DNA of 34,784 bases from positions 1 through 34,784 of the IMG/VR virus record IMGVR_UViG_3300012667_000745. One strand, given 5' to 3'. Below the pieces are notes generated by a model. That model saw nothing but the letters and a program-made list of their open reading frames with translations, was not told the origin of the DNA and did not search any database. This document shows, in pieces, positions 19,621 to 33,949 of the stretch (positions are counted from its first letter, which is position 1; the number at the start of each line of letters is the position of its first letter). A program made the position numbers and the translations under genes. The DNA comes from a virus. Its lineage: Duplodnaviria; Caudoviricetes.

Positions 19621-21786
19621 TTAAAAAATCTCGCCCTTGTCGATGTCGAAGTTCTCTCCGATGTCGATCTCCCAAATCTTACCTCCACCGTTACCTCTAC
19701 TGCGCACAGTGCGCACGTTCGGGTTGTGTCGGCTGACTTCCTCAAGGACGGTCATGCCCCTACGCACGAACTCCAGATTGTTTGAGTTCCCAACGCTACG
19801 GCCCCCGTTCACCTCGTGCAATACGACGGTGAACTCGGTGAGCGTGCCGCGCCATTTCGGAGTCTCGATCTGCGACCGAACCTTTTTGGCGAAGAACTCG
19901 ACCATTTCCGCGATCGCAGAACGGCTCGAATTATCGTAGGCAGCGGCTTCGATGAACGAGTCGATATACGTTTTGACGCCAAACCGATTTGAGTCGCTGA
20001 CTTCAACAGGAGCTTGCCAGTCCAACAACCAACGCAAGAAGAACGGGAGCTCAGCAGCAATGGTTCCTTCGACCCATTGGTTCGAGCCGAACTTCATCTT
20101 GTGTCCGCTATTGATACGCAGCGCGATGATCTTGTCTCGGTTACTGGAATCCAAAGTAGGCAATGCCGCCAATGAGTTGGCATCCAAGTTGAGTGACATC
20201 ATCACCCGACCCGCCCACGGCAGCGGAACAGCGTCCGCATACTTGGCATGATATTCGAGCCTAGGATTTGCCACGCACCGCTTCGTGAGCTCAACAAACT
20301 TGCGTTGGTCTGCGTAGGTGGCAGCCGCAACTTGGTCGTCAATGACCCAAGCGGCAGAACCGCAGAGGTCTTTGTTGAAGCTAGTCGTGCCGGACAAGTA
20401 GCCGCTGGCATCACTGAACCCGCCCACTGAGCCACCGACAATCTGGTTGGTGAGCAGAGTCTTGCCGTGCCCAGTTGGGCCCAGCAAAATGAGCAAGTGT
20501 CCTTGATCCATACGACTTTCAAGCACCGCCTTATAGAGCCTTTGATACCATGCGAGGAAGTAAGGCAGAGTGCTGTTGCCCTTGTCGTCGTTCGTGAAGA
20601 ACGGCATCAAGAACTGATGAATCCACGGCCAGTTCTTCGGGTCCCCATCTTCCGCAGGTTTCACCGCTGAGGTGTAGCAGTTGTTCAGGATGCGTCTGCC
20701 GTTGAACTTCACGACGCGCTCTTTCGAGAACACGACAGGGGCAACTTCGTCCACCCGACAATCATTCGAGATCGTGAGCAACGCTTGCTCCACTTCTGAA
20801 ATCGGCTGGTTCTTGTTCTGCTTCGTGGAGAAACCGCTCTTACGTAATTCGAGCACGAGTTGCTTTTCCGGCACAGTTACCGGTGAATTGTGAAGCATCT
20901 TGTAGAATGCCTTGCCGTTGAACCAGTAGTTGTCTAGCAAAGTTCCGAGCTTCTTTTGCTCGAACTTCTCCATGAACTTCTTACCTAAGATTTCACGCCA
21001 GCTCTTGAATCCCGTTCCTGCACGATCCGAGTAGCACACGATTCCGTCCTCCCGAATCTGGCATCCGTCACGGTCAATGCCGTCGTCGATCCAGAACAGC
21101 GGGCCACGGGCCCCCACGATGAACTCGCCAGTCCACCTATTCGGGAAACGGGCCATGACCTCTTGGGCCACTTCGTCGATCGGGATATTGGTGTCCTCCG
21201 TCTTAATCACTACGTCGTTTGCCGCCTTAAGCAATAGCGTCCTAACGAACAAAGAGGGCAACGGGTCACCCATTTTGGTCCAGTCCTCACCGATTGCGTA
21301 ATACTGTGTCGGTTTCAGGCTGCAACTGTCGAACTTCGCACTTAGGGTTGGCGCTCGTAAAGCATCGGACAGACGCTTGTAGAATGCCACGGCGAGTTCT
21401 GGCGCTACGAGAATAGGCTCCTCGAATTCCCACACCAGACGCATGCCCTCGGATTGGGTTTTAGAGCGCCACGTTGGTAGTGATCCACCGTCGCATCGGT
21501 CAGTGAGGATCTGGTCAATGCGGCCCCACTCAGGCGGGCAGTCGTAATCGGCTACCCATCCATAGAGTTTGTTGATCGGATTGTCCGTAGAGATCCGTTG
21601 GTTCTTGTTGTCGCCCTCGGCCATCGTGAAGAAGCAATGGTCTGTATTGGCAGATGCGCACCACGCCCGATAATTGGCCTTGCGATCAATAGCGAAGTTT
21701 GGCCTAGGATAGGGTTTAGCGAGAGGGTCAGTAAAGGTCCCGTTGATTCCCACTTGCGTGAGATTTGAAATGTAGAGGTAACTCAT
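19621..21786 (-). CDS. Primase-helicase (prim-pol-like N-terminus plus P-loop NTPase)
   Basis: ADYD and SKTQSEGMRLVW motifs, Walker A LLGPTGHGKT, Walker B WVIDD; coupled to polA. Confidence 0.75.
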   Translation of the reverse strand: MSYLYISNLTQVGINGTFTDPLAKPYPRPNFAIDRKANYRAWCASANTDHCFFTMAEGDNKNQRISTDNPINKLYGWVADYDCPPEWGRIDQILTDRCDGGSLPTWRSKTQSEGMRLVWEFEEPILVAPELAVAFYKRLSDALRAPTLSAKFDSCSLKPTQYYAIGEDWTKMGDPLPSLFVRTLLLKAANDVVIKTEDTNIPIDEVAQEVMARFPNRWTGEFIVGARGPLFWIDDGIDRDGCQIREDGIVCYSDRAGTGFKSWREILGKKFMEKFEQKKLGTLLDNYWFNGKAFYKMLHNSPVTVPEKQLVLELRKSGFSTKQNKNQPISEVEQALLTISNDCRVDEVAPVVFSKERVVKFNGRRILNNCYTSAVKPAEDGDPKNWPWIHQFLMPFFTNDDKGNSTLPYFLAWYQRLYKAVLESRMDQGHLLILLGPTGHGKTLLTNQIVGGSVGGFSDASGYLSGTTSFNKDLCGSAAWVIDDQVAAATYADQRKFVELTKRCVANPRLEYHAKYADAVPLPWAGRVMMSLNLDANSLAALPTLDSSNRDKIIALRINSGHKMKFGSNQWVEGTIAAELPFFLRWLLDWQAPVEVSDSNRFGVKTYIDSFIEAAAYDNSSRSAIAEMVEFFAKKVRSQIETPKWRGTLTEFTVVLHEVNGGRSVGNSNNLEFVRRGMTVLEEVSRHNPNVRTVRSRGNGGGKIWEIDIGENFDIDKGEIF

Positions 21787-24404
21787 TTTGCGTAGAGGTC
21801 GAGGATGTGTCCTTCAGCAGCAACGGGAATGTCTGGAATCCAATCCGGTGGCGTTGACATGATGTTCAAGATGTTGCTAAGGGCTTCATCGGCAATCGCT
21901 TCAGGCACTTCGCAAACAACTTCGTCATGGACGTGCAGGATAATCGGGTATCCAGCGGCGTCAATACGCAGCATCATGTCAGAGAAGATATCTCTAGCAA
22001 GCCCCTGACTAGCATTTTCAGCGAGTGTGCCCCCGTATAGCTTGATGTCACGCATTCCGCCCATGCGATACATCTTGCCGATGATGGCAAAGCGATCGCC
22101 TAGGGCTTTCATTTTGCGCAGCTTGCCGTAGCGTAAAATACGGGCCGATGGTAGCTCCAACTCGAACGGAACGCCCAAAGCGCAGGCGGTAACCAGTTCC
22201 TGATTCAGCTTAGCCCAGTAATTCACTACCGACTTCATCCGTAAGCGGTAAGTGCGCACAGCTTGCTCAGCTTCCTCAAGGCTCATGCCGCTGAATTCAG
22301 CGAACCGAGCGGCCCCGATTCCGTAGCCACAATTGTGGACCACCATAGGGCCCGCGTCCGTAAGTATCGTGAACCTATTCCGTGGTCCCGCGAAGCTGAC
22401 ATCGTAGACTACTGACCTCCTTTTCGAGTTCGGTAATTCTTGTCTGCATACCATAAACGGTCCTGCGGTTTTGCATATTGTCAGATCTGGAGACAAATCG
22501 TAGGTTTTCTGGCTGGTAACCTCGATCATTGTCGATCCTGTCGAGTTGTAGTTCAGCGTCATCCCACCCTTTGAGGGTAGTGAGATAGGCGAGGAACTCC
22601 TGCCTTCGCCCCCTCCACGGTGGGAATACGTGTATTCCACGCCCCCCATAATGCCTGTAAGCTGCGTCATTTGGGTTGTGGCATCGGTTGATGCAGGCCG
22701 AAATACGGTCAAGAAGTCGCTGTCTAGCGTCGTGGTCGGGGACGAAATTTTCGTATCCGCTGTTCCTCCGATTGGTTTCCGCTGATTTCTGTTTGGCGCA
22801 CGTGTTGCACCTAGTTGTCCTTCCCGTTTTGACGTTGTTTCTGTCCACAACACCAATCCATCCGCATTCACACCGCATTCGCGGATGCCATGCCCTATTT
22901 TTGTTAACCCATTCGAGCACGGTAAAGTTACCGACCTTACTGCCGACTCCGTAAGGGAAGGGTTTGTAGCCACCTCGCACCACTCCAGCCACCCATCTTC
23001 CGTTAGAATCTCGTGGTCCTCTGTTACACCCACCCCGTGTTGTCTGATTGTCTCCTGTTCCCCTTGACATATAATTCCATTATGGTTAACCCACTCAACC
23101 CCATCCCATACTCGGTCTTGGGTTTCTAGATATAGAATAGGTTTCCAACCGTATTCAGTCAAGACCAAAGTATCGGGCTCAAAGCATCCCAAAACCATTG
23201 CCTTGACCCGTTGCCTGAGTCCTTTGTCGTAGTCCTTGAGCTCGCCGTTGGCTGGATCGTGCAGGCCCAACAACACACCGAACGCATGGTAGATGTCCTT
23301 AGCGTTGCGGATCATGTCCAAGGCCCGCTTGTCCCCCGCCAGATAACTGAGCGTGCGAACCTCAATCTGGGAAAGGTCAGCTACAATGAGCTTGTTGCCT
23401 GCCTTAGGCTTAATCATGTGCCGGAAATTGACTCCGAACATTTCTTCCCGAGGCAGGTTCTGCAAGTTGAGGTTGCCGCCGCTGCCGCTGAAACGTGCAG
23501 TTGGGTTCGCCCCGCAATACATGAGTCCCCCATAATAGCGATCGTCAGGCATCGTGCCGTAATCGAACGCCTGTAGTTTCTTCTGGAACATGTTAATGCG
23601 GCGGTAGTCCTGCACCGATCGTGCCCACGGGCAATCTTGTTGGTGTGCAGCAAACCACTTGTCCGCATCCTCGTTGCCTGCGGCCAAAGACTTCGGCGGG
23701 TCAATGCCTTGCTTGCGGCATTGTGCGTTGAATGCCTTGCGGCTCAACGGGGTTGCGTCACCGATCCAAGGGATTGACCGTTCGGCGTCAAACAAGGTGT
23801 TGCCAATCTTAACGATGTTCTCACGTAATGCTTTAACGTCGATCGGCAAACCGCGCTGGCAGATCTTGCGGTTCATCCGGCTGATGTCTCGCTCAACTTG
23901 CGGCCATTGCTCGTGTAATGTTTTCCAGATACGCAAGCAAAGCTGAGAGTCAACGATCGCGTATTGGGTGACCTCCTTGCGGAACTCCTCGGACATCGAA
24001 GACCATTGCAAGCCTTTCATGTTATCCCGAGTTGTCTTATCGACTTTGATGTCGAATAGGGTAGCACTCGCGTTTTTGAGCGAGCGGGGCAGACCTAAGT
24101 AGGCGACCATATCAGCGGTGCAGTGCCATTCGGCGGGAGTGCAAGGCTTGAACCAGCCGCAGTTTACCCCGTGCAGGTAGAGCGACTCATCGAAGGAGGC
24201 GTTGTGGCTCAAGACAGTATGGCCGTTAAGCATGGACCAGTCGAATTCCCGAGGGCAGCCTGCGTATACATAACCATCATCCCCGACGACGGTTACCATA
24301 TAGGCTTCAAAAGAAGGGTGCGAGAAATACCCAGCAGGTCCTAGTGTGGTGATAGAGCATTCGGAGTCGTAGAAACTCTCGAAATCCAAGGCGTATGTAA
24401 TCAT
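21783..24404 (-). CDS. polA: Family A DNA polymerase precursor containing an intein (588 aa after splicing)
   Basis: Exonuclease motifs LDFES and HNASFD; TARFSG, NLQNLP, motif A DLSQIEVR, motif B RQRVKAMVLG|CGYG, motif C HVHDE. Confidence 0.95.
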   Translation of the reverse strand: MITYALDFESFYDSECSITTLGPAGYFSHPSFEAYMVTVVGDDGYVYAGCPREFDWSMLNGHTVLSHNASFDESLYLHGVNCGWFKPCTPAEWHCTADMVAYLGLPRSLKNASATLFDIKVDKTTRDNMKGLQWSSMSEEFRKEVTQYAIVDSQLCLRIWKTLHEQWPQVERDISRMNRKICQRGLPIDVKALRENIVKIGNTLFDAERSIPWIGDATPLSRKAFNAQCRKQGIDPPKSLAAGNEDADKWFAAHQQDCPWARSVQDYRRINMFQKKLQAFDYGTMPDDRYYGGLMYCGANPTARFSGSGGNLNLQNLPREEMFGVNFRHMIKPKAGNKLIVADLSQIEVRTLSYLAGDKRALDMIRNAKDIYHAFGVLLGLHDPANGELKDYDKGLRQRVKAMVLGCFEPDTLVLTEYGWKPILYLETQDRVWDGVEWVNHNGIICQGEQETIRQHGVGVTEDHEILTEDGWLEWCEVATNPSLTESAVRSVTLPCSNGLTKIGHGIRECGVNADGLVLWTETTSKREGQLGATRAPNRNQRKPIGGTADTKISSPTTTLDSDFLTVFRPASTDATTQMTQLTGIMGGVEYTYSHRGGGEGRSSSPISLPSKGGMTLNYNSTGSTMIEVTSQKTYDLSPDLTICKTAGPFMVCRQELPNSKRRSVVYDVSFAGPRNRFTILTDAGPMVVHNCGYGIGAARFAEFSGMSLEEAEQAVRTYRLRMKSVVNYWAKLNQELVTACALGVPFELELPSARILRYGKLRKMKALGDRFAIIGKMYRMGGMRDIKLYGGTLAENASQGLARDIFSDMMLRIDAAGYPIILHVHDEVVCEVPEAIADEALSNILNIMSTPPDWIPDIPVAAEGHILDLYAK
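22332..23186 (-). mobile_element. Intein (285 aa, precursor residues 407-691) in PolA motif B
   Basis: Block A CFEPDTLVLT, block B VTEDHEILT, block F VYDV...NRFTI, block G VVHN followed by Cys+1. Confidence 0.95.
22375..23070 (-). CDS. HNH homing endonuclease nested inside the intein in the -1 frame
   Basis: RCECG...RCNTC, RCHNPNDAAYRHYGGRGI and LDRIDNDRGYQPENLRFVSRSDNMQNRR motifs; own ATG and TAG. Confidence 0.9.
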   Translation of the reverse strand: MSRGTGDNQTTRGGCNRGPRDSNGRWVAGVVRGGYKPFPYGVGSKVGNFTVLEWVNKNRAWHPRMRCECGWIGVVDRNNVKTGRTTRCNTCAKQKSAETNRRNSGYENFVPDHDARQRLLDRISACINRCHNPNDAAYRHYGGRGIHVFPPWRGRRQEFLAYLTTLKGWDDAELQLDRIDNDRGYQPENLRFVSRSDNMQNRRTVYGMQTRITELEKEVSSLRCQLRGTTE

Positions 24405-24438
24405 TGTTTGTAAGTTTTCTGTTTAGGATTTAAGGCGT

Positions 24439-24479
24439 AAAAATACCCACGCCCGCTGCATAACACAGGCAGGCGTGGG
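24439..24479 (-). terminator. Rho-independent terminator-like hairpin
   Basis: CCCACGCC...GGCGTGGG followed by TATTTTT on the - strand. Confidence 0.55.
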
Positions 24480-24492
24480 CTTTGGGTTTGGT

Positions 24493-24723
24493 TTAGTTAA
24501 GTTCCGGAACGAAAGCGAACTCCAGTTGTTCGTTTGCTTCGGACTCCAGTCGCTTAACCTCATTGTCGAATGCCGCTGCCATTACAAGCAGGCGGCCCTT
24601 CTGAATGGAGGCGGTAGCGATTTGACCACTTAGCTCTTCGGCTGCACGACGCATCGCATCGGCTTCTGATCTAAGTGTGTGAATAGGATTCAATAGTCCC
24701 ACATCAATTACGTTAGTCTCCAT
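24493..24723 (-). CDS. Small coiled-coil protein
   Basis: 76-aa ORF in the replication operon. Confidence 0.6.
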   Translation of the reverse strand: METNVIDVGLLNPIHTLRSEADAMRRAAEELSGQIATASIQKGRLLVMAAAFDNEVKRLESEANEQLEFAFVPELN

Positions 24724-24728
24724 TTGGA

Positions 24729-25340
24729 TTATGCGTTAGGGCGTGATGCGAACTCTTGGGCTTCCTTAGGTGACTCCTCTTTCGTTACGGAAAGAGTTGG
24801 CACATACCAGCTATACTTACCCTTCGACATCAGCTCCGTGCCGAAAGTCCACAAACGAGTGAAGGCCGGAACGGTTGGGTTGAATGTTTGGAAGGTGAAT
24901 AGGCGCTTGAAGGTCAAGCGGTATGCGTCCTTCTGAACGGTAAGGCGACCCAATTGGTAGTTGTTATCCCCGATTGGGTATGGGAAGTTCGTGTCGTCAT
25001 CACCGATCTGTGGGATCAGCAAGATGATTTCGGCAAACTCCACAATTGGGTAGCTGCTTTCTTGGGCCAGAGCCCGTGCGTCCAACTCATTGCTGGCCAT
25101 CTTAGGGATCTGGTCGTCGTCGTAAGGGACATCTTCCTTCCAACGTTTAACAGCGCCTACGATGATTACAGGGGTTTTCTGCTCGGCTTCCAGTAGGACG
25201 AACTCTTTGTCCAATACGACGGAACCGACAGGCCCTTCGATCTGTGACATCTTCTGGATGACGTTCAAACGCGGGATTTCAATATCCTGTGAGAGTGCCA
25301 TGCCTTGATTCGCTACTACGCTTAGTGTTTCGGTGCTCAT
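24729..25340 (-). CDS. Putative ssDNA-binding or replication accessory protein
   Basis: DIEIPRLNVIQKMS N-terminal motif and KGKYSWYVP; lies between the exonuclease and polA. Confidence 0.5.
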   Translation of the reverse strand: MSTETLSVVANQGMALSQDIEIPRLNVIQKMSQIEGPVGSVVLDKEFVLLEAEQKTPVIIVGAVKRWKEDVPYDDDQIPKMASNELDARALAQESSYPIVEFAEIILLIPQIGDDDTNFPYPIGDNNYQLGRLTVQKDAYRLTFKRLFTFQTFNPTVPAFTRLWTFGTELMSKGKYSWYVPTLSVTKEESPKEAQEFASRPNA

Positions 25341-25588
25341 GATTATGATATAGGATTACAGATTCAGTGCTTTGTTTGCTGGTCCTGACTGGTCGGACTT
25401 AGGTGGTAAAAAGTAAAAAGGGGCGCAAGGTTCTTGGCGTTTAAGTCAGGCTGCATACAGCAACTGACCCCTGAAAGTGGTAGAAATTGACGGCCCGTTG
25501 ATTACCTTTGGATTTGGAATCCTCTGGTTCCGCCTATTAACCGACTACGGGCCAACGTCGGAATCACTTAGGTTAGGGAAAGTTGCGG

Positions 25589-25807
25589 TTACTCGGCGTG
25601 CGCGAATTGCGTTCCCGCACGTTCAAGCCGCTTCCCGAGGATTTGGACGTATTCACTCATCACCCGTTGCTGGGAGTAGAGCAGATCCTTGTCTTCGCGT
25701 GGCAGCTTCGGGAATGCCGGATCGGCCATGAACGTATTGAGTTTGTTCAGGCGTGTGGCGGTTTCTTGCGTCTCAATGAGGAGACGTGCTCTTTGTTCTT
25801 GGTCCAT
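25589..25807 (-). CDS. crAss001_48-like small helical protein
   Basis: RL..E..E...RLNKL..F......L...D..LL..Q..VM.EY..IL..RL pattern. Confidence 0.7.
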   Translation of the reverse strand: MDQEQRARLLIETQETATRLNKLNTFMADPAFPKLPREDKDLLYSQQRVMSEYVQILGKRLERAGTQFAHAE

Positions 25808-25898
25808 AATGTTGTTTTATGTGTGAGAAAGTGTCACCGCATGGGGTCTTTCACCCCTCCAGTTTAGACGACTGGCGCATTAACATGCGGTGCGGTAT

Positions 25899-25973
25899 TG
25901 GTTGCGCAGTCGGGATTTGAACCCGAAACCCTTGCTTATGAGACAAGTGAGATACCGTTTCTACCACCGCGCT
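25899..25973 (-). tRNA. tRNA-Met(CAT), initiator-like, with encoded CCA
   Basis: AGCGCGG TG GTAGAAACGGTATCTC A CTTGT-CTCATAA-GCAAG GGTT TCGGG-TTCAAAT-CCCGA CTGCGCA ACCA. Confidence 0.9.
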
Positions 25974-26015
25974 GAAGGGAAGTTGGCTTGTTCCGTTTAT
26001 TTTGCAAGAACTATT

Positions 26016-26597
26016 TTAGTCAAAAAACGCTTCGAACTTTTCGATCCTAATCTTTAGTTCTTCGTTTTCAGTGAACAGTTTATCAATGAGTGCATTTTTA
26101 GCACAATGGGCTTCTTCCCACTTTTCTATTTCGCTTTTGAGAACGCCCAGTTCTTTACACACGTTTTCGAGATCAGCTCGCTTACAGTGATTTTCTGTTT
26201 GTAGTTCCCCAACTAAACGCTGGAACGCGTCTCGTTCGTTGCCCAGCGCTAGAATTCGTTGGAGGGCTGAACTTACTGTGACCAGTAACCTGCCTTCAAG
26301 AGTAAGGTTCTTCGCCCGCGCATCGTCGATGATTTTGGATGCCTCGAAAATCGTTTTGGTTTTAGCGTTTGACTCGTCCCGTTCGTTTTGGAGCATAAGC
26401 TCGCGACGTAGCACCGCTATGCGATGCACGCACACAAGGTCTTCATGCATCATCTTCCAAGTATCACGGTCTTGGGTCGCCTGTTTTACGGTGCTTTCGG
26501 ATTCCAACCCTTTCAGGGCTAGCTTTAGAATATCTCTATGTGCGTCCCCTAGGATTGGGTTCTTTAGTTTCTCTAGGATGTCTTCTTTAGTAATCAT
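26016..26597 (-). CDS. Coiled-coil hypothetical protein
   Basis: 193 aa with an L/E/K-rich heptad pattern. Confidence 0.65.
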   Translation of the reverse strand: MITKEDILEKLKNPILGDAHRDILKLALKGLESESTVKQATQDRDTWKMMHEDLVCVHRIAVLRRELMLQNERDESNAKTKTIFEASKIIDDARAKNLTLEGRLLVTVSSALQRILALGNERDAFQRLVGELQTENHCKRADLENVCKELGVLKSEIEKWEEAHCAKNALIDKLFTENEELKIRIEKFEAFFD

Positions 26598-26686
26598 GGT
26601 ATGTGTTTATGGGAAAGTGGTCAGGAGGTTTTTACACCCAGCTAGCAGAGGCGATCAACCCTCCGCAGTCTGTTTTATCCCGAAAG

Positions 26687-26960
26687 TGGTAGCCGCTTAC
26701 GGCGGCAAGTCGTGTGGGCCGTTATTATTTCTTGCGCTTGTGCTCCCTGAACGGCTGGGAATTGACCTCGCAGGTATTGACCACATCTCAACCACCGTAG
26801 AGGTCGCTCACGCCTCGGTAGATGGAACTCGACGATGCATCGGCGGAACTCATAAACTTTGATCGTGCCCACGTCTGACGGTGGCTGAGATGTAGTGACC
26901 GATTACGTCGGTCAGGCGTATCGCATTAACGCTGCGATAGGTGTCGTAGTTTTAGAATGG
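26687..26960 (-). ncRNA. Candidate structured non-coding RNA of unknown class
   Basis: 18-bp helix with G-U pairs only on the - strand, several hairpins with GNRA-type loops, possible pseudoknots, ACCA 3' end. Confidence 0.6.
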
Positions 26961-26977
26961 CGGAGTTTTCCTAGGTC

Positions 26978-28117
26978 TTACTTACTGGTAAGGCTGTATC
27001 TGGTTGGTCCGATCTCAACGATGCCTAGATCAATAGCTTCAGATTCGAACTGGTCAACAATAAAAGATTTTTTTCCTTTATCCGTTTTGTTGTGTAGGGC
27101 AGTTGAAACCTGATTGAGTGTTAGGTCAGCGGCTTCGATGATGTCCTCCATCTCAAGACCATACTGGATTCCGAGTTTGGCTAAGTAGTTTTTCTCAAGG
27201 GTCTTCTTAAGGCCGCCCATAGAGCGCAGCTTGTGGTGCTCGAACTCGTGCCCGTTTAATGCCAATCCGGTAGCCTTGTGCTTAATCGACTTTGCCCAGT
27301 TTTCTACAATCTTTGCCACGATGAACAGGCGCTCCAGAACTTCAGGATCTTCAACTTCTGACGGGCTTATAGGTCCCGTAGGCAGTAGGTCTGGCCGGAT
27401 CTTTTTGGCGATCGTGACACAGACTGCACCTAATGCGGGGCAGTTCTCCTCGTGCCTACAGAAGCGGCAGTTCACTGAAGGAGTAACATCGTCGATGTCG
27501 ATATCGCCTGTAGCCCACTTCGGTCTTACTGTTTCGGCCTTGCCGATTACGTCGGAGATCTCCTTGCGTAGGGTGGGCATTTCGTCACGCACGAATACGC
27601 CGCTGAGGATGCCCCCGTTGAGTGGCACGATGAAGGCGAACTTGATCGTGTGCAGGTGCGGGAACATTTGGAACGCCGCCAATGCGTAGGCTTTGGATTG
27701 CCAGTTATTCTTTGGGTCGTCAATCTTGCTGATGCCTGTCTTGTAGTCGATCATCACGGCTACGCCATCCGGAGAATGCACCAATAAGTCGCATGTGCCG
27801 AAGGTTGGGGTAGCCGCATCAAGCTCAAGCACTAGACGGATCTCCCGTTGGGTTGTTTTCGGTAGGTCACCGAACACGCCGTTTAGGATCTCGTCTTCAT
27901 CCTTAATGATGCCATCATAGATTTGCAGCTCTTCTTCATCGTGCAAAGCGGATGGGTCGCGTATCTCAAGGGCTTCATGTATCCTTGTTCCTTTTTCGGC
28001 AGCCGCAGAGGTCCCATCCTTGCCGTGGTATCCGGCACAGGTTGCGACATACTTGAGTGAGGAAGGGCCGAACTCAGCGTGTGCTCGTTCGGAGTGGTTT
28101 ACGGTTTCTGTATTCAT
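26978..28117 (-). CDS. Cas4-like PD-(D/E)XK exonuclease (DUF2800-like)
   Basis: HAEFGPSS..C, GTRIHE, FGTCD, IDYKTG, Q..AYA and CRFC....CP motifs. Likely start MNTET at 28117. Confidence 0.85.
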   Translation of the reverse strand: MNTETVNHSERAHAEFGPSSLKYVATCAGYHGKDGTSAAAEKGTRIHEALEIRDPSALHDEEELQIYDGIIKDEDEILNGVFGDLPKTTQREIRLVLELDAATPTFGTCDLLVHSPDGVAVMIDYKTGISKIDDPKNNWQSKAYALAAFQMFPHLHTIKFAFIVPLNGGILSGVFVRDEMPTLRKEISDVIGKAETVRPKWATGDIDIDDVTPSVNCRFCRHEENCPALGAVCVTIAKKIRPDLLPTGPISPSEVEDPEVLERLFIVAKIVENWAKSIKHKATGLALNGHEFEHHKLRSMGGLKKTLEKNYLAKLGIQYGLEMEDIIEAADLTLNQVSTALHNKTDKGKKSFIVDQFESEAIDLGIVEIGPTRYSLTSK

Positions 28118-28133
28118 TTGTGTAGGGTAAAAG

Positions 28134-28421
28134 TTACGGGTTATCGGAGTCGTTGCGTTGTCGGGCGTAATAGTGGCTGCGTTCATTCGGTGTGAGTTTA
28201 TCCACGCCGTGCTCTTTCACTTTGGCCTCAATCTCCTCCCCAATGCGGTCGAACTCCTGATGCTTCAACCACCATTTATTCACTTCCTCCAAATTAGGTA
28301 GGTAATTAGGGCTGTGTTTATTTACTGAGGTGCATAAGGTGCATAAAAGTTCGGTGAGATAATGTATCTTTTTTGCGAGTCTGATTGGTCTATCGTGGGT
28401 GTCTGGATCGTAGCAGGGCAT
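28134..28421 (-). CDS. Hypothetical protein
   Basis: 95 aa, MPCYD...LLC..C...WW..H phage-type pattern. Confidence 0.65.
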   Translation of the reverse strand: MPCYDPDTHDRPIRLAKKIHYLTELLCTLCTSVNKHSPNYLPNLEEVNKWWLKHQEFDRIGEEIEAKVKEHGVDKLTPNERSHYYARQRNDSDNP

Positions 28422-28439
28422 ATTTGTGTATGGTAAAAG

Positions 28440-28586
28440 TTAATGTCTAAGGCCGCAGTTCGGGCAGATCCCTACGCCATAGCGCGTGTAGTTCAAGCGG
28501 TTACGGCATTGGTAGCAGCAGCCGATAAACTTAAACACGAGTTTTACATAATAACGGATGCGTAGTTTAAGTCTTAGAAGTTTCAT
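28440..28586 (-). CDS. 48-aa zinc-ribbon peptide (not in ORF track)
   Basis: MKLLRLKLRIRYYVKLVFKFIGCCYQCRNRLNYTRYGVGICPNCGLRH, ATGA-coupled to the helicase. Confidence 0.6.
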   Translation of the reverse strand: MKLLRLKLRIRYYVKLVFKFIGCCYQCRNRLNYTRYGVGICPNCGLRH

Positions 28587-29875
28587 GCGGTGTGTAATGT
28601 CTCCCTAAAGAGCCTTTTATGTTCGAGCTTTACAAGTATTTTTTCTTCAATTGTTCCGGACGCCACCAATACCCGTTGCACGCAAGGGGACTTTGCCCCT
28701 GCTCTGTGGATACGGCCTAAGGTTTGAACGTAGGCTTTCTCGTCGAACGTGGGCGAGATCAAACTCATCCGAGGATGGCCGCCTACCGTATCGTGCAAGG
28801 ATACCCCCGTTCCGCCTGCTGCGATATTGCAGACGATCACTCGTGACTCGTTGCGTTGGAACGATTGGATATTCTCTTCGCGCTCCGTATCCTTCTGGCC
28901 GCCGACTACAACAGCGCATTTCGCGCCAAAGGATTCCTGCAAGGCTTTGACGGTATCGACAAAGTTTACAAACACAGCAACGCTGAATCCTTCCGCACGG
29001 GCTTCCCACACCATGTCGATGATGTCTGGGACCTTAGCCGCTTCGGCCAACTGTCTCGCCCGAAGCATTTCCACTAAGACGTGCGGGGATGCCCCACCGT
29101 TTTCAAGGAACTGCTCCACGATTTCCGGCGTGATTCCGTGTTCGGCGTAGAACTTGGCAATGTCCTTGAGGGAGGCAAACGCAAGGGGTTCCGTGATGAT
29201 TTGGTTTCCTGCGAATTCACTTGCAAGATCCCCGCAAGTCAAACGCGTGGCGGTTACACCATACATCTTAGCGTTGATCTCCTTGAGCTTAGCGACTGAG
29301 CCAGCATGCCAAGCGTTCCAATGGTCCTTGCGGCAGCCGTGTTCCAGCATCCAAGTGAACCAGCTCTTGAGCTGGCCCTCAGCGCGGTTCAAGGAATGCA
29401 GCCCTAAGGCAAATCCAATACTCCGCATTTCTGTAGGGTCTTGGCAGGCTGTAGCGGACAGCATCAAGTTGTAGTAGCCTGCTTGCTTTGCCGCGATGAG
29501 CATCTGACTGTTCTGGCTGAACGGGGACATGCAGCGGTGAACTTCATCCCAGATGATTAGTGTATTTTCCGGTAGCATCCACCGGAATAGTTTCTTGCCT
29601 ACCTTAGCCAGATGTGGCCCGCCGCGTTTGAGCTTCTCGTAGTTGGTTACAAATACGGGCTCGATGCCTAGCTCCGCGAGCTCGCGCTTCCATTGCGGGA
29701 TAACGATCTTCGGGCATACGATGGCAACGGGCATGCCTAATTCAAGAGCAGCCCTACATGAGATAACCGTCTTGCCTACTCCGGTTCCCGAACTATCCAA
29801 CGCGCCCTTGTGCTGCAAGAGCGCGTCCTTCAGGAAGTCAACGGACGTTCGTTGTTTAGCGTAAAGAGTTTTCAT
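28583..29875 (-). CDS. Superfamily 2 (SNF2-like) helicase
   Basis: GTGVGKT, DEVH, SAT, AGGTGVSL and QTLGRIHRAG motifs. Confidence 0.9.
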   Translation of the reverse strand: MKTLYAKQRTSVDFLKDALLQHKGALDSSGTGVGKTVISCRAALELGMPVAIVCPKIVIPQWKRELAELGIEPVFVTNYEKLKRGGPHLAKVGKKLFRWMLPENTLIIWDEVHRCMSPFSQNSQMLIAAKQAGYYNLMLSATACQDPTEMRSIGFALGLHSLNRAEGQLKSWFTWMLEHGCRKDHWNAWHAGSVAKLKEINAKMYGVTATRLTCGDLASEFAGNQIITEPLAFASLKDIAKFYAEHGITPEIVEQFLENGGASPHVLVEMLRARQLAEAAKVPDIIDMVWEARAEGFSVAVFVNFVDTVKALQESFGAKCAVVVGGQKDTEREENIQSFQRNESRVIVCNIAAGGTGVSLHDTVGGHPRMSLISPTFDEKAYVQTLGRIHRAGAKSPCVQRVLVASGTIEEKILVKLEHKRLFRETLHTA

Positions 29876-29904
29876 GGCTTGCCTTTTGGTTGTTAGTCAT
29901 TTGC

Positions 29905-30483
29905 TTATACAGATTGGGGTAGGTTATCGAATACACAACTTATCACTTCCCGCACTATAGCTTTTCGTGAGCGTGACCGCTCTGTCTCCATACTATCATT
30001 GTATGCTGCCATCATGCCAAGGGGCACATCCACAACACCGGTAACTGTTTCGGGATCATAGCCGTGAGTGTGGTGTAGGACGGCCAGTGTTGCGCCGCCC
30101 ATACCCATTTTCTTAATTAACCGTGGGACATTTACTTTTGCGGTTTCGTAAACCTCGTGCGCTTTCTGCTCTTCGCTTTCGAGCACATCCCCAATTCCGA
30201 TACCCACATTAAATGGTCGCTTCTGGCATTCTGCGGGCAAGTCATCCCACCGGACGTTCTCCCTAGTTCTCCCGCACCAGAAGCATTTACAAGATCGTAA
30301 GGACGAGGGGAAGTTATGAGTGTTTGGGTCTGATCGGAAGTGGGGAGCATGATAGGCGTGATAGGCTTTCATCACGCTATCCTTTTCTTCAGGCGACGCG
30401 TCGAAGAACTGTCGCGCAATTCGGACAATACTAATATCTGGATAGAGTGCAGTCTTCTGTCCGATGTCGGGGGTGGTTTTCAT
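29905..30483 (-). CDS. Protein with a Cys cluster and an alanyl-tRNA synthetase-like helical fragment
   Basis: IGDVLESEE...G..LAVLHHTHGY...YNDSMETERSRSR resembles AlaRS I..VL..EE...G..AF.L.DTYGF...F...M..QR.RSR. Confidence 0.55.
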   Translation of the reverse strand: MKTTPDIGQKTALYPDISIVRIARQFFDASPEEKDSVMKAYHAYHAPHFRSDPNTHNFPSSLRSCKCFWCGRTRENVRWDDLPAECQKRPFNVGIGIGDVLESEEQKAHEVYETAKVNVPRLIKKMGMGGATLAVLHHTHGYDPETVTGVVDVPLGMMAAYNDSMETERSRSRKAIVREVISCVFDNLPQSV

Positions 30484-31181
30484 TGCTCGCCTTTAGGTTG
30501 CGCGTCGTTATGGATTGTCTTCTTGAAACCTACGTTTCCGGCAATGTGATATACGACTACCCCTTCTGGATTCATGTAGTTCGGAGCGGCTTTGCTTCCA
30601 GTTGCCCCAAGCACAGTGAGGGTAGAGTTTACAAATGCAGTGTCAAATGGCCCACGATAAAGGATAGGCACTACTTTACAGCATGCAGGCGCACGTTCTT
30701 GCGGTTTATGGGTCATCTCTTTGGTTTTGTAGTCCCATTCCGTGGATGCAACGCCAATTGGATCGTCTCCAGCAACCCAACGTCCTGCGTTAAACAACGA
30801 GAAGAAGCGTTCGCCGTTCTTGAAGCCGTAGCCGCGTTGGATACCGCTACCCCACCATTCTCCGAAGTGGTGCCCTTCACCCAACTTGAAAAGTTCGCTG
30901 GCATTAGCGACTGCCCAATTGGCGAAGCCGTAGTTGTCATTGGCAGTAGTAATCCAACGGGTTCGGCTTCCGGCCCACATGCCTAAGGCGCTGCCGTCTT
31001 TATTGAAAAGTGTAGCAATCGACTTAAAGTCGGTGTGGTCTGTGGGTCCGATGTAAATGCTGGCATTCGTGCCATCAATTTTCTCACTAATTATCACTTC
31101 CCGAGAGAGCCTTGCCATTTTGGGGAATGGCTTAAATTTATTCTGATTTTGTTGTGTTTCCATTTCCTGTTTTCCTATCAC
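30480..31181 (-). CDS. ATP-dependent RNA ligase (Rnl2-like adenylyltransferase domain)
   Basis: Motif I EKIDGTN, GSRTRWI, FGEWWG, FSLF, PEGVVV and FKK. Start GTG 31181 or ATG 31163. Confidence 0.85.
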   Translation of the reverse strand: MIGKQEMETQQNQNKFKPFPKMARLSREVIISEKIDGTNASIYIGPTDHTDFKSIATLFNKDGSALGMWAGSRTRWITTANDNYGFANWAVANASELFKLGEGHHFGEWWGSGIQRGYGFKNGERFFSLFNAGRWVAGDDPIGVASTEWDYKTKEMTHKPQERAPACCKVVPILYRGPFDTAFVNSTLTVLGATGSKAAPNYMNPEGVVVYHIAGNVGFKKTIHNDAQPKGEQ

Positions 31182-31575
31182 GGGTTCGTATTCTGTGGCA
31201 ATTGGCGCAAACTAATTCGCATTTGTCCAACTCGGTTTGTATAAGCTCTCGGCTGTAATGGTGGGCGAACATGCTGCCGATGTTGTAGGCTTTCTTGCCC
31301 CCCTTGCAGTGATCGAAGTCCATGCAGCACACCGGAAAGCATTCTCCGCAGTCTGTGCATGGCTTTGATTTTAATTCGACCATCCACGCCTTGAGTGCTA
31401 CCGCCTTGGCTCCTTCGTCCCTCCATCGACCTCCTGTCGCATATCTGCGAGCGCGATAAACCCTCACCGATTCGTTGTGCTTTTCCCGGTTCTTGGCTAC
31501 CCAGTTCCGTTGTCGAATTATGGCGGCTTCCTTTTGCTCCTTGGTCAGGACCCTTTTCTTTTTTGTTACACCCAT
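31138..31575 (-). CDS. HNH endonuclease
   Basis: CTDCG...MDFDH...KCELVCANCHRIRT with a basic N-terminal arm. Confidence 0.9.
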   Translation of the reverse strand: MGVTKKKRVLTKEQKEAAIIRQRNWVAKNREKHNESVRVYRARRYATGGRWRDEGAKAVALKAWMVELKSKPCTDCGECFPVCCMDFDHCKGGKKAYNIGSMFAHHYSRELIQTELDKCELVCANCHRIRTRDRKTGNGNTTKSE

Positions 31576-31581
31576 AGCGGA

Positions 31582-31609
31582 AGTATGGACTAAACGTCAA
31601 GGATGTCAA
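31582..31609 (-). promoter_or_regulatory. Promoter for the HNH cassette, probably leaderless
   Basis: TTGACA-16nt-CATACT, then 6 nt to ATG 31575. Confidence 0.55.
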
Positions 31610-31615
31610 TGCTTG

Positions 31616-31681
31616 CTTTTCTGTAATCATGCACTCGCGTGATAGGCGAGCCATCTTTGGGAATGGTTTGAATTCGGTCAT
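31616..31681 (-). pseudogene. Orphaned original 5' end of the RNA ligase gene (22 codons)
   Basis: MTEFKPFPKMARLSRECMITEK matches FKPFPKMARLSREVIISEK in the ligase. The frame stays open to 31178. Confidence 0.8.
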
Positions 31682-31887
31682 TTGTTTAGGTAGTGTGAGT
31701 TAATTGCGTCAAAGCCAGATTTTCGTAATCTGTTTCTAATCAGGCCGATTTTCTTGTCGAGCAAAGACAGTGTGGTTTCCGTGTTGTGTTTGCCGGATAC
31801 CCGACTCAAGCACCAGTCCGATAACGCTTGCAGCTCCTTCTGCAAGCGGCATCGGTATGCGTTGTCTATGATTTGTTTGTCAGTCAT
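31678..31887 (-). CDS. Hypothetical protein
   Basis: MTDKQIID..., overlapping both neighbours. Confidence 0.55.
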   Translation of the reverse strand: MTDKQIIDNAYRCRLQKELQALSDWCLSRVSGKHNTETTLSLLDKKIGLIRNRLRKSGFDAINSHYLNK

Positions 31888-32182
31888 TTTTCCATTTGTT
31901 GATGGTTTTGAGAAATGCTTCTGCGCGTTTGGCAGCGGTAGCCTGCATAACTTCAACTAAATCGCCAGTCAGCAGTTCTGCTACGGTAATCTGCTGGTCG
32001 AATGGTAGTCTCTCTATTGCAGTATGCATCGCGTTGAGGTCTGTAAGGTAGCTCGGAATAATTTTTGATTCGCCCGTTGGGTCAACTCCCCGCAGACCAC
32101 CGTAACTAAATCGGTTGATTCGCTCAATGCATGTCCACCCGCAGGCCTCGGCAATCGTAATCCGTTGTTGTTCCGTGTTCAT
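31880..32182 (-). CDS. Phage ABA-sandwich-like protein, paralog 2
   Basis: QRITIAEACGW...PSYLTDLNAMH...ATAAKRAEAFLKT. Confidence 0.7.
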   Translation of the reverse strand: MNTEQQRITIAEACGWTCIERINRFSYGGLRGVDPTGESKIIPSYLTDLNAMHTAIERLPFDQQITVAELLTGDLVEVMQATAAKRAEAFLKTINKWKND

Positions 32183-32532
32183 GGTTCCCATAAGTCAAGT
32201 GTTCTGAGAAACGCTTCGCAGCGTTGGGCAGCGGTGGCGTGTATAGAGATACGTTCGTTATCGTAGGCACTCCACCCGATGACTTCAGCAATTAGAACGC
32301 TTTGGTATTTTTTACGCAGGGGATCTGTCAGCGTCTTCTCAAACTCATGGCATGCGTTGAGGTCGTTGAGGTAGTCAGGGCAACTCGTAAAACCGCCCCA
32401 GTTCTGATACACCATTCCGTCCGGCGCGAGCCAGTCACTCACGTTTTTTCGCTTTACCCACCCGCAGGCTTCAGCAATAGCGATTCGTTGGGCTTCAGGA
32501 CTCATGGTGTCGTGTGTTTTGATTTCGTTCAT
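32179..32532 (-). CDS. Phage ABA-sandwich-like protein, paralog 1
   Basis: QRIAIAEACGW...PDYLNDLNACH...ATAAQRCEAFLRT. Confidence 0.7.
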   Translation of the reverse strand: MNEIKTHDTMSPEAQRIAIAEACGWVKRKNVSDWLAPDGMVYQNWGGFTSCPDYLNDLNACHEFEKTLTDPLRKKYQSVLIAEVIGWSAYDNERISIHATAAQRCEAFLRTLDLWEP

Positions 32533-32571
32533 GGTTTTATAAATCTGACTTTGGTTTGTTTATTTGGCTGT

Positions 32572-32865
32572 TCATCCAATATAAATCCATGCCAGTTCGC
32601 GGCGTTCGTGGGTAGCTTGGCAGCGTTTGCATTCCGCGTTGCCGTTCCGTAGCAAGTGGAAGCTCACGCTCCCGCATGCGCATTTCAGGCATTCGTCGCG
32701 GCCATCTTCCGGCTTCATCGCGTAGTCTGGGCAGTTTCTTTTCTTCCACCCGTATTCCGAATCAAGTTCGTTTTTGGGCATATACCAACGGGGATTGCGA
32801 CCAGCAAGGCAGGTTACTTTTTTGTCGTGATAGACGAGGTTGGTGCATTTATCGCAGGGACTCAT
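32572..32865 (-). CDS. Cys-rich zinc-binding protein
   Basis: CDKC, CACG and CKRC motifs. Confidence 0.6.
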   Translation of the reverse strand: MSPCDKCTNLVYHDKKVTCLAGRNPRWYMPKNELDSEYGWKKRNCPDYAMKPEDGRDECLKCACGSVSFHLLRNGNAECKRCQATHERRELAWIYIG

Positions 32866-32889
32866 AAGAGGATGAACAAGTCGTGAGAC

Positions 32890-33237
32890 CTAACCGGATA
32901 CAGCCGGATTGTTTGATTTTGAAGCGGAGTCCTGCGCGGCTGTATCCGGCAGGTCCACATGGGCGTTAGCCAGAGAAAGGTTGGTGTATCCGTAGAAGGC
33001 GATGTTGGCCGCGTTCCCCTGGATGCCGGGATGGTCTAGTGTCAGCACCTCTTTTACATCGTTCAGTTTATCGTCGCGAAGCACCTCGCGCCCTTCTCTT
33101 AGCGCGAGGAATAACGGGTAGTGCGGGCTTTCCTTGGAAGGGGGTCTTGCGTTTCTCGGATACCAGAGATCAATGTGCATTTCGTCGCCATACTGGCGAG
33201 CCTGACTTAGAATCGTATCATCTTCTTCGGTGTTCAT
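32890..33237 (-). CDS. Hypothetical protein
   Basis: 115-aa ORF with an A/C-rich leader typical of this arm. Confidence 0.55.
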   Translation of the reverse strand: MNTEEDDTILSQARQYGDEMHIDLWYPRNARPPSKESPHYPLFLALREGREVLRDDKLNDVKEVLTLDHPGIQGNAANIAFYGYTNLSLANAHVDLPDTAAQDSASKSNNPAVSG

Positions 33238-33277
33238 TTGAGTTATCGGTGTTGGTTTTTGGATTTTGGAATTACCA

Positions 33278-33949
33278 TTAGTCGTTCAGCACATACTTCA
33301 TTTGTCCAGCATCCGCGATTGACGCGCACAGCGGGAAGTGCTCTGCGAACTGAGTGAAGATGCTGTTGGCTAGATCACGATGCTCCTTCTGAGCATGTGC
33401 CGAACGACGTTGCCAGAAGTAGGTGATCCAGCTACGGACGCTGCCCTTCATGTAGGCACGAGTGGGTGTGCATAGCGGCAGCACCATACGGGCGGATTCA
33501 GGTGCGGCTCCGCAGTCCAACAACCATTCGTATTCTGCTGCGGCTCTACCTGCTTCAAAGATAGTATGTTCTGACAGCAAACTGCTTACCTCACCTGACC
33601 CCTGTCTGTTCCCACCTTCGTGTTTCAGACGGATTTCCAAATCGCTGAAATCGAATTCCTTAACTTCCGCATAGCGTTGCGAGAACTCTTGAAACTTAAA
33701 CGAAGAATGGCGCAGGATCTGAGCCATGATTGCTCTGCTGGTGTGGATCTCGAACGTCACGTCCACCATATCGAAGACAGACCAATGTCCGTTTTGTAGG
33801 CAATATCGTAGGAGTCCTTCTCCGGTTCCGTGGTTGTGCTGGTTGTTCGGTGAGCTGACTCGGGCTTGGTAAACGATGAACTGCTCGGGGGTAAGATCAA
33901 GCAGATCGGCTTGGATGGGTTTGGTGATGCTTACGATTTCTGATTTCAT
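33278..33949 (-). CDS. thyX: Flavin-dependent thymidylate synthase
   Basis: ARVS, HWSVF, SRAIMAQILRHSSFKFQEFSQRY, ESARMVLP and HAQKEH motifs. Confidence 0.95.
   Translation of the reverse strand: MKSEIVSITKPIQADLLDLTPEQFIVYQARVSSPNNQHNHGTGEGLLRYCLQNGHWSVFDMVDVTFEIHTSRAIMAQILRHSSFKFQEFSQRYAEVKEFDFSDLEIRLKHEGGNRQGSGEVSSLLSEHTIFEAGRAAAEYEWLLDCGAAPESARMVLPLCTPTRAYMKGSVRSWITYFWQRRSAHAQKEHRDLANSIFTQFAEHFPLCASIADAGQMKYVLND

What the first reader, a model, noticed from the sequence alone, without database searches (positions are those of the whole stretch)
22332..23186. Dual-coded intein: homing endonuclease overprinted in another frame
Seen: the PolA intein has intact splicing blocks (C1, TxxH, block F, HN/C+1). 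Its roughly 190-aa middle is T/S/G-rich with no nuclease motif. The same DNA read in the -1 frame (23070-22375) is a complete 231-aa HNH with its own ATG (an in-frame TAA lies 4 codons upstream) and TAG, overlapping blocks B and F. Both frames are stop-free over about 700 nt. Established: canonical inteins carry the endonuclease in frame. Inference: a free-standing HNH invaded a mini-intein out of frame, which decouples nuclease expression from polymerase expression. An annotator would call this a nuclease-free intein. I recall similar out-of-frame architectures being noted in some phage inteins, so novelty needs a literature check.
Basis: partly seen in the sequence, partly recalled or inferred. 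Interest (0 to 1): 0.85.

Follow-up and report, generated by a model that had tools for sequence, protein, structure and literature searches.

The report
Polymerase intein hides out-of-frame nuclease gene
A freshwater phage's DNA polymerase gene carries an insert predicted to splice itself out of the protein (an intein), and the same DNA read two bases out of step encodes a separate, conserved, predicted DNA-cutting enzyme that likely spreads the insert; the overlap is real and shared by many phages, but this kind of layout has already been described for other inteins.

Summary
Observation confirmed. A 285-aa class 1-type intein (23186-22332) sits in motif B of a phage PolA. A 231-aa beta-beta-alpha-metal nuclease ORF (23070-22375) is nested in the +2 (-1) frame. 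It is not an assembly error: contigs from four other runs (one study) show no indel. Selection switches frame along the element: dN/dS is 0.13 in the nuclease frame against 1.46 in the host frame in the middle, and 0.15-0.18 in the host frame at the ends. 79 of 80 polymerase relatives lack the insert, including alleles 95-97% identical, and near-identical inteins sit in divergent polymerases, which points to homing. 79 of 87 related intein records have the intact nested layout (+2 or +1), including Salmonella phage SETP3, SO-1 and APSE-1; none has an intact in-frame nuclease. The nuclease has Arg where HNH enzymes have the catalytic His, plus an invariant Tyr, so it is likely PacI-like (weak structural support). 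The layout is published for Endo VII-like (Gosselin 2025) and LAGLIDADG (Phillips 2026) nucleases, and this scan noted it before in at least 20 genomes. Splicing, expression and cutting are untested. New variant of a known kind.

The parts
21783..24404 (-). Family A DNA polymerase precursor, 873 aa (588 aa after predicted splicing)
   Evidence: Pfam DNA_pol_A E 9e-23; PHROG 17 E 2e-64
22332..23186 (-). Intein, 285 aa, inserted in motif B (O-helix) between KAMVLG and CGYG
   Evidence: Precise absence in 79 of 80 relatives; empty allele L056 aligns KAMVLG|CGYG to KAMSYG|LAYG of Pol I 6vdc
22917..23186 (-). N-terminal splicing region (aa 1-90: C1, W27-D28-G29, T55xxH58)
   Evidence: C1, T55, H58 invariant in 46 of 46; pLDDT 92-98; Foldseek top hits are inteins
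22332..22421 (-). C-terminal splicing region (aa 256-285: D262, H284, N285; C+1 follows)
   Evidence: D262, H284, N285 invariant in 46 of 46; host-frame dN/dS 0.15
22422..22916 (-). Host-frame filler loop (aa 91-255), predicted disordered and not conserved as protein
   Evidence: pLDDT below 50 over 92-251; host-frame dN/dS 1.46
22375..23070 (-). Nested nuclease gene in the +2 (-1) frame, 231 aa: unstructured leader, SH3/Tudor-like barrel with CxC/CxxC cysteines, beta-beta-alpha-metal domain, C-terminal long helix
   Evidence: PHROG 374 E 2e-31; model pLDDT 88.5; dN/dS 0.13; 2290 homologues
22468..22542 (-). Predicted active site D177-R178-x6-Y185-x3-N189...N198-x2-N201 (Arg in place of the HNH general-base His)
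   Evidence: R178, Y185, N189, N201 invariant in 115 of 115, D177 and N198 at least 90%; D-R aligns to I-HmuI D-H, weak E 0.4; PacI Z 4.4-4.5
23068..23094 (-). Start region: family-wide RTG at intein codons 31/32 (GTG 23094, blocked here by TAA 23082-23080) and the ATG that follows (23070)
   Evidence: RTG at this place in 36 of 39; window and L034 have a stop after it and an ATG at codon 39

Best explanation
This is a likely homing intein in a phage family A DNA polymerase whose predicted endonuclease is a separate gene nested in the +2 (-1) reading frame of the intein instead of being fused in frame. Ribosomes reading the polymerase frame make an 873-aa precursor; the intein's two ends are predicted to fold into a HINT domain and excise the 285-aa insert, filler loop included, giving a 588-aa polymerase (inferred). 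Ribosomes that start internally at the ATG at 23070 would make the 231-aa nuclease (inferred from a family-wide conserved start, not from expression data). During co-infection it would cut or nick the intein-less motif-B allele, and repair from the intein-bearing copy would copy the element over (inferred from distribution). The nuclease likely uses a PacI-like Tyr in place of the HNH His. It likely arose when a free-standing phage nuclease gene of the PHROG 374 family landed in a mini-intein; selection then kept the polymerase frame free of stops (shown), while amino-acid constraint in the overlap falls on the nuclease (shown).
For: Frame-switching selection in 11 disjoint pairs (22 of 39 distinct +2 elements): middle dN/dS 0.13 nuclease vs 1.46 host; before the ORF 0.18 host; last 25 codons 0.15 host. 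Of 9 differences in other runs, 7 fall in the overlap, and 5 of these 7 are silent in the nuclease and change the host frame. No +2 stops in 1404 codons over block B vs 108 in the +1 frame, and RTG at codon 31/32 in 36 of 39. Models: nuclease pLDDT 88.5; intein ends 92-98, middle below 50. 79 of 80 extein relatives empty, including 95-97% nt-identical alleles. Intein and empty alleles in the same run, X1 and X3. Inteins 98% identical in exteins 55% identical (L025/L026). Free-standing homologues exist; a related mini-intein exists (L141).
Against: No splicing, expression or cleavage data; no RNA run was listed. The general-base His is absent; the PacI likeness is weak (Z 4.4-4.5, below the range the tool treats as specific). 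The one PacI-like phage nuclease in the Skunavirus exclusion assay is not among the two reported active (passage of PMC12724721). The nuclease leader over block B has dN/dS 1.24, so only its openness is selected. Zero host-frame stops is partly by construction: 4 of 84 nuclease-bearing records with a broken host frame were left out. dS is near saturation in the distant pairs. One close relative (L002) has a nuclease stop.
Confidence: 0.82

Rival explanations
1. The nuclease is made by programmed -1 frameshifting as a PolA-N/intein-N/nuclease fusion rather than by internal initiation.
For: The +2 frame is open from about codon 31-36 of the intein, so a -1 shift there would enter it.
Against: Slippery heptamers in only 5 of 39 elements, at five different places, none in this window; a start codon is conserved at codon 31/32 in 36 of 39, and 8 of 8 four-fold-degenerate codons there end in A/G. 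No unusually stable RNA structure around the start in 5 sequences (z -0.7 to +1.3).
Confidence: 0.05
2. The nested protein is kept for a job other than homing (DNA-binding regulator, exclusion of competing phages) or is catalytically dead, and the intein spreads by ordinary recombination.
For: His replaced by Arg; no solved relative by sequence at E below 0.1; a PacI-like Skunavirus nuclease was not among those reported active.
Against: Metal-ligand positions D177 and N198 and the Tyr are conserved across nested and free-standing members; patchy distribution and near-identical inteins in divergent exteins; PacI is active with Tyr in place of His (PMC5714182, PMC4081073 passages).
Confidence: 0.1
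3. Sequencing or assembly indels moved a normal in-frame HNH intein out of frame, or the insert is an RNA intron carrying an HNH gene (as SO-1's annotation says).
For: One public record (SS3e, L135) does show several frame switches; SO-1 gp38/gp39 is annotated 'type I self-splicing intron'.
Against: No indels in contigs of four runs, with X2 covering the whole intein; same phase in 57 records; no Rfam match at E up to 1; protein-level splicing residues invariant and under host-frame purifying selection.
Confidence: 0.02

Closest known systems
[quoted passage not shown]
   Same: Same-strand nested beta-beta-alpha-metal nuclease in frame 3 (+2) of a phage intein; unstructured in-frame middle; proposed invasion by a free-standing HEN.
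   Different: [quoted passage not shown] Their sequences (supplements) could not be seen.
Cyanobacterial DnaX intein with +2 LAGLIDADG ORF (Phillips, DeSimone, Gogarten, bioRxiv 10.64898/2026.09.14.751524; earlier proposal credited there to Gorbalenya 1998)
   Same: +2 same-strand HEN, frame-dependent dN/dS, coexistence of empty, mini and full alleles.
   Different: LAGLIDADG nuclease, bacterial chromosomal gene, different intein family.
PolA inteins of Jerseyvirus SETP3/Ent2, Dhillonvirus SO-1 and APSE-1 (GenBank records)
   Same: Same intein family and nuclease family; SETP3, Ent2 and SO-1 are +2, APSE-1 is +1.
   Different: Records either miss the nested gene (SETP3, Ent2) or list it without this interpretation (SO-1 gp39 as intron HNH; APSE-1 P46 unnamed). 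Identity to this window's intein is about 28%.
Fractured genes (Dassa et al. 2009, PMC2677866)
   Same: Free-standing endonuclease gene between intein halves; relatives L012/L013 and L156 (this nuclease) and L047/L161 (GIY-YIG-like) have that layout.
   Different: In this window the host frame is unbroken, so the intein is contiguous.
ShiLan and Pacc40 methylase insertions with hidden out-of-frame HNH (Arsenault et al. 2025, PMC11855218)
   Same: Out-of-frame HNH inside an open host frame; the Pacc40 one was modelled on PacI.
   Different: No splicing domain there; a methylase host.
PacI restriction endonuclease / His-Me finger group 20 (PMC5714182)
   Same: His absent, Tyr in the omega loop; best nuclease match to model residues 104-206.
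   Different: Z only 4.4-4.5, about 20% identity; extra N-terminal barrel and C-terminal long helix here; activity untested.

Membership tests
Class 1 intein | Cys/Ser at position 1 and Cys/Ser/Thr at +1 | tested here: met
   C1 invariant in 46 of 46; C+1 in window
Class 1 intein | Block B TxxH, block F Asp, terminal His-Asn | tested here: met
   T55, H58, D262, H284, N285 invariant in 46 of 46
Class 1 intein | HINT fold | tested here: met
   pLDDT 92-98 at both ends; Foldseek top rows are DnaB/DnaX/DnaE/gp41-1 inteins, best E 1e-3, probability 1.0; Pfam gives only weak Vint/Hint_2 hits in 7 of 46
Class 1 intein | Precise in-frame insert with empty homologues | tested here: met
   79 of 80 empty; contigs skip exactly 855 nt in X3 and X9
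Class 1 intein | Protein splicing activity | not testable with these tools
   Needs a splicing assay
Canonical HNH intein | Endonuclease in frame with the splicing domain | tested here: not met
   Offset 2; 0 of 87 records intact in frame
Canonical H-N-H nuclease (I-HmuI type) | Histidine general base after the Asp (D74-H75 in I-HmuI) | tested here: not met
   Arg invariant at that place in 115 of 115; alignment to I-HmuI is weak, E 0.4
PacI-like His-Me finger (group 20) | His absent and a conserved Tyr in the omega loop | tested here: met
   Y185 invariant in 115 of 115 and in 34 of 34 nested plus free-standing domains (the 33 besides the window's were picked by a motif that required Y or F)
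PacI-like His-Me finger (group 20) | Structural equivalence to PacI | tested here: inconclusive
   3m7k Z 4.4, rmsd 3.5, 82 aligned; 3ldy Z 4.5, rmsd 3.5, 84 aligned; no residue-level superposition available
Frame-3 Endo VII-like intein (Gosselin 2025) | HEN on the same strand in reading frame 3 | tested here: met
Frame-3 Endo VII-like intein (Gosselin 2025) | Endonuclease VII-like nuclease | tested here: inconclusive
Fractured gene / split intein (Dassa 2009) | Host frame broken into two ORFs around the endonuclease | tested here: not met
   Host frame open in the window; broken in L012, L013, L156
Homing endonuclease | Cleaves the empty allele and drives gene conversion | not testable with these tools
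   Only indirect signs:

The most novel reading that the evidence does not exclude
One phage PolA intein family was colonised several times by free-standing nucleases, in both +1 and +2 phase and at several polymerase sites, and survives today as a full series: mini-intein, contiguous dual-coded intein, and split intein with the nuclease between the halves. Its nuclease is a homing enzyme that uses PacI-type tyrosine chemistry, starts from a codon built out of the intein's own block-B-proximal codons, and drives an arms race in which near-identical empty phages change the conserved motif-B glycine next to the site to escape cutting.
Probability: 0.3. Interest if true: 0.62.

Novelty: new variant of a known kind. 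Interest (0 to 1): 0.42.

Why it matters
If right, a large set of phage polymerase inteins long annotated as nuclease-free (145 Salmonella phage records match this intein) are active homing elements whose nuclease gene callers miss. Members in cultured phages of laboratory hosts make a so-far purely computational class testable: does the nested gene get translated, from which start, and does it drive homing. The series from mini to nested to split forms bears on the open question of how inteins acquire endonucleases and how split inteins arise. A Tyr-based homing nuclease would be an unusual enzyme. The general layout itself is no longer a surprise.

Tried and rejected
Internal sigma-70 promoter at CATAAT: not picked by the consensus scan; 3 sites in 3 kb vs 2.3 +/- 1.6 in shuffles; the nearest minus-strand site ends 64 nt upstream at 9 of 12; the hexamer is just codons H35-N36 and differs in L001. 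Shine-Dalgarno initiation in this phage: 0 of 22 ORFs have one; starts are A/U-rich, and the nuclease start is 75% AT. Programmed frameshift: no shared slippery site. RNA intron: no Rfam match. Regulatory hairpin over the start: none in 5 sequences. In-frame fused relatives: a search of longer proteins gave 32 hits among 371 candidates, none with a precomputed polymerase or intein domain; I did not inspect their sequences, and the tool calls this weak evidence. Sequence searches of PDB with the protein, its nuclease part and two profiles gave nothing below E 0.1. Foldseek on the nuclease model gave nothing at E up to 0.001; Endo VII was not among the listed rows, which does not exclude it. No RNA holder was listed, which says nothing on expression. 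The careful nuclease tree did not finish; only quick trees are reported, and no one-clade test was run. The automatic label marked 7 of 80 as possible inserts; by reading the translations 6 are empty alleles with variant residues and 1 (L081, same contig as L027) is an intein. Look-ups of earlier scan notes by sequence and by place returned nothing.
Full report
OBSERVATION. The window is a 34.8-kb virus record, 58% complete by CheckV. PolA runs 24404-21783 on the minus strand (873 aa; Pfam DNA_pol_A E 9e-23). Residues 407-691 (23186-22332) are a 285-aa insert with junctions VLG|CFEP and VVHN|CGYG. A 231-aa ORF (23070-22375) lies inside it at offset +2, with ATG, TAG and an in-frame TAA four codons upstream. 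It matches PHROG 374 'HNH endonuclease' at E 2e-31 and has 2290 homologues among 2541 candidates. The insert site aligns to motif B of Pol I (KAMVLG|CGYG against KAMSYG|LAYG in 6vdc, using the natural empty allele L056).

NOT AN ARTEFACT. Contigs from four runs of one study lie on the intein with no gaps; run X2 covers all of it in two overlapping pieces. They carry 9 substitutions. Seven fall in the overlap: 5 are silent in the nuclease and change the host frame, 1 changes both, and 1 in the block F tail is silent in the host frame. The 2 outside the ORF are silent in the host frame.

THE INTEIN. In 46 aligned relatives C1, T55, H58, D262, H284 and N285 are invariant. The AlphaFold model is confident at residues 1-90 and 256-285 (pLDDT 92-98) and below 50 over 92-251. 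Foldseek's top rows are inteins (best E 1e-3). Pfam does not recognise it, and Rfam finds no intron.

THE NUCLEASE. The model has mean pLDDT 88.5: a poorly predicted leader of about 30 aa, an SH3/Tudor-like barrel with CxC and CxxC cysteines, a beta-beta-alpha domain and a long C-terminal helix. In 115 sequences R178, Y185, N189 and N201 are invariant and D177 and N198 nearly so. A domain profile aligns D177-R178 to D74-H75 of I-HmuI and N198 to N96, though only at E 0.4 (residue roles from a passage of PMC12724721). So the usual general-base His is missing. PacI is the one nuclease among the top 50 structural rows (Z 4.4-4.5, rmsd 3.5, 82-84 residues), and PacI is described as using Tyr in place of His (passages of PMC5714182, PMC4081073, PMC3384342). 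From memory, not from a call, PacI's D92-R93-Y100-N113 spacing equals D177-R178-Y185-N198. The PacI link is plausible but weak.

THE FAMILY. The intein query found 23 viral loci: 6 with the nuclease at +2, 16 with a more distant one at +1, 1 cut off. The nuclease query found 28 viral and 20 metagenome loci. I fetched 10 annotated phage records with the intein. In total 87 intein records, duplicates and the window included, could be delimited (L011, L030, L148 and the first intein of L160 were cut by contig ends and not counted). Of the 87: 56 intact at +2, 23 intact at +1, 1 at +2 with a nuclease stop (L002), 3 split in the host frame (L012, L013, L156), 1 frameshifted record (SS3e), and 3 without this nuclease (mini-intein L141; two copies of a split form with a GIY-YIG-like ORF). 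None is intact and in frame. In cultured phages 193 records match the intein, 145 of them Salmonella phages. SETP3, Ent2, SO-1, MR14 and EBPR siphovirus 2 are +2; APSE-1, Caulobacter RW and Javan255 are +1. Ent2's record calls this intein 'splicing domains' only, SO-1 lists the nested gene but calls it an intron, and APSE-1 lists part of it as P46. Ten other hits fetched were free-standing genes with stops in both other frames. In a quick tree the 39 distinct +2 nucleases form one group (SH-aLRT 99, with split L156 inside) and the +1 ones form two. The splicing-domain tree, built from 23 of the 39 +2 elements, 20 +1, one mini and three split forms, intermixes the phases. That fits several acquisitions, but no one-clade test was run.

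SELECTION. For 11 disjoint equal-length pairs (22 of 39 distinct +2 elements; NG86, pooled): before the ORF dN/dS is 0.18 in the host frame; over block B 0.40 host and 1.24 nuclease; in the middle 1.46 host and 0.13 nuclease; in the last 25 codons 0.15 host. Four +1 pairs give 0.20 nuclease and 1.62 host in the middle. dS is near saturation in distant pairs, but the three closest pairs (90-94% identical) show the same pattern (nuclease pN 0.02-0.04, pS 0.24-0.33). Synonymous resampling predicts 4.1 host-frame stops per +2 element (3.2 here); the third frame holds 431 stops in 7107 codons. Records with host-frame stops were excluded before that count, so the zero is partly by construction.

HOW THE NUCLEASE IS LIKELY MADE. 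The +2 frame has no stops in 1404 codons across intein codons 40-75, against 108 in the +1 frame and 64 in 936 codons at positions 1-24. A start codon formed by codons 31/32 occurs in 36 of 39. Glu, Gln or Lys before Trp gives this automatically in 29, but all 8 four-fold-degenerate codons there also end in A or G. In this window and L034 a stop follows that site and an ATG appears at codon 39. No slippery site is shared (5 of 39, all different). This phage's genes lack Shine-Dalgarno motifs (0 of 22) and the nuclease start is similarly A/U-rich and weakly folded. Internal initiation on the polymerase mRNA is the best reading; it is inferred. The CATAAT promoter idea has no support.

MOBILITY. 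Of the best 80 of 111 N-extein relatives, 79 are empty at the site; L052, L053 and L056 are 95-97% identical in DNA on both sides apart from a 293-nt piece of L053 at 92%. Contigs skip exactly 855 nt in runs X3 and X9, and runs X1 and X3 hold both intein pieces and an empty-type join. L025 and L026 share inteins 98% identical in exteins 55% identical. The window's nearest intein (L001, 74% nt) sits in a 52% identical extein, while 72-73% identical exteins carry more distant ones. This is what homing predicts, but it does not prove that this protein does it.

WHAT IS KNOWN. Gosselin et al. (10.1101/2025.01.02.630785; abstract, passages, discussion section 15) report Endo VII-like HENs in frame 3 of actinophage inteins and propose the same invasion model. 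Phillips et al. (10.64898/2026.09.14.751524; whole text) report a +2 LAGLIDADG in the DnaX intein with the same dN/dS switch and allele coexistence. Arsenault et al. (PMC11855218; abstract, discussion, passages) report hidden HNHs in methylases, one modelled on PacI. Dassa et al. (PMC2677866; passages) describe fractured genes. Eight searches (listings only for most hits) turned up no paper describing a nested nuclease in PolA inteins of the SETP3/SO-1/APSE type. The library lacks most subscription journals, and the bioRxiv supplements (Gosselin Table S1 and structures) were not available and could bear on how close their nuclease is. The scan's own notes hold 21 similar findings in at least 20 genomes; I read them after forming my view, and they agree.

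VERDICT. A real, selected, dual-coded and likely mobile intein. The architecture class is in print. New here are the host site, the nuclease type, the overlap with the splicing blocks, two phases within one family, and cultured members for tests. New variant of a known kind; interest 0.42.

Noticed in passing
L052:2975-3004, L053:2975-3004; run X13 joint at window 22319-23193: Empty alleles closest to the window differ most right after the insertion site (9 of 30 nt vs about 3% overall) and change the motif-B Gly: CGYC, CGYS, and CGFS in X13. This occurs in 2 of the 5 nearest alleles and 1 of the other 74 empties (CGYQ, L093). It may be escape from cutting; numbers are small.
   Followed up: partly
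L053:3293-4258, L061:3296-4267: Close relatives that are empty at this site carry a second intein of the same family further down PolA (LAEN|C) with a +1-frame nuclease.
   Followed up: partly
L038, L039, L042, L160: Polymerases with two dual-coded inteins, one +2 at motif B and one +1 at the YGGK-like site (the first intein of L160 is cut by the contig end).
   Followed up: partly
L047:1256-2497, L161:756-1997: Split intein of this family at TGRF|S with a GIY-YIG-like ORF (motif read by eye, not searched) between the halves, in the same polymerase as a +2 nested intein.
   Followed up: partly
L012/L013:3001-4019, L156:2025-3140: Split forms with this nuclease between and overlapping the intein halves.
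   Followed up: partly
L141:2501-2920 (Ruminococcus phage NatCom_29429): 140-aa mini-intein, sister to the +1 nested intein of Streptococcus phage Javan255 with support 96 in a quick tree.
   Followed up: partly
L002:2646-3500: Intein differing from L001 at 5 of 855 nt, one of which puts a stop in the nuclease; early decay or a sequencing error.
   Followed up: partly
L135 (Salmonella phage SS3e): The record shows several frame switches in the intein, so it is annotated as three genes; probably sequence errors, not checked.
   Followed up: no
window 19621-33949 (-): Replication cluster: DUF5906 primase/helicase-like ORF, PolA, PD-(D/E)XK exonuclease, helicase, RNA ligase, ThyX. No Shine-Dalgarno motif before any of 22 ORFs, which hints at a host that does not use one. 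Best-holding runs are freshwater metagenomes.
   Followed up: no
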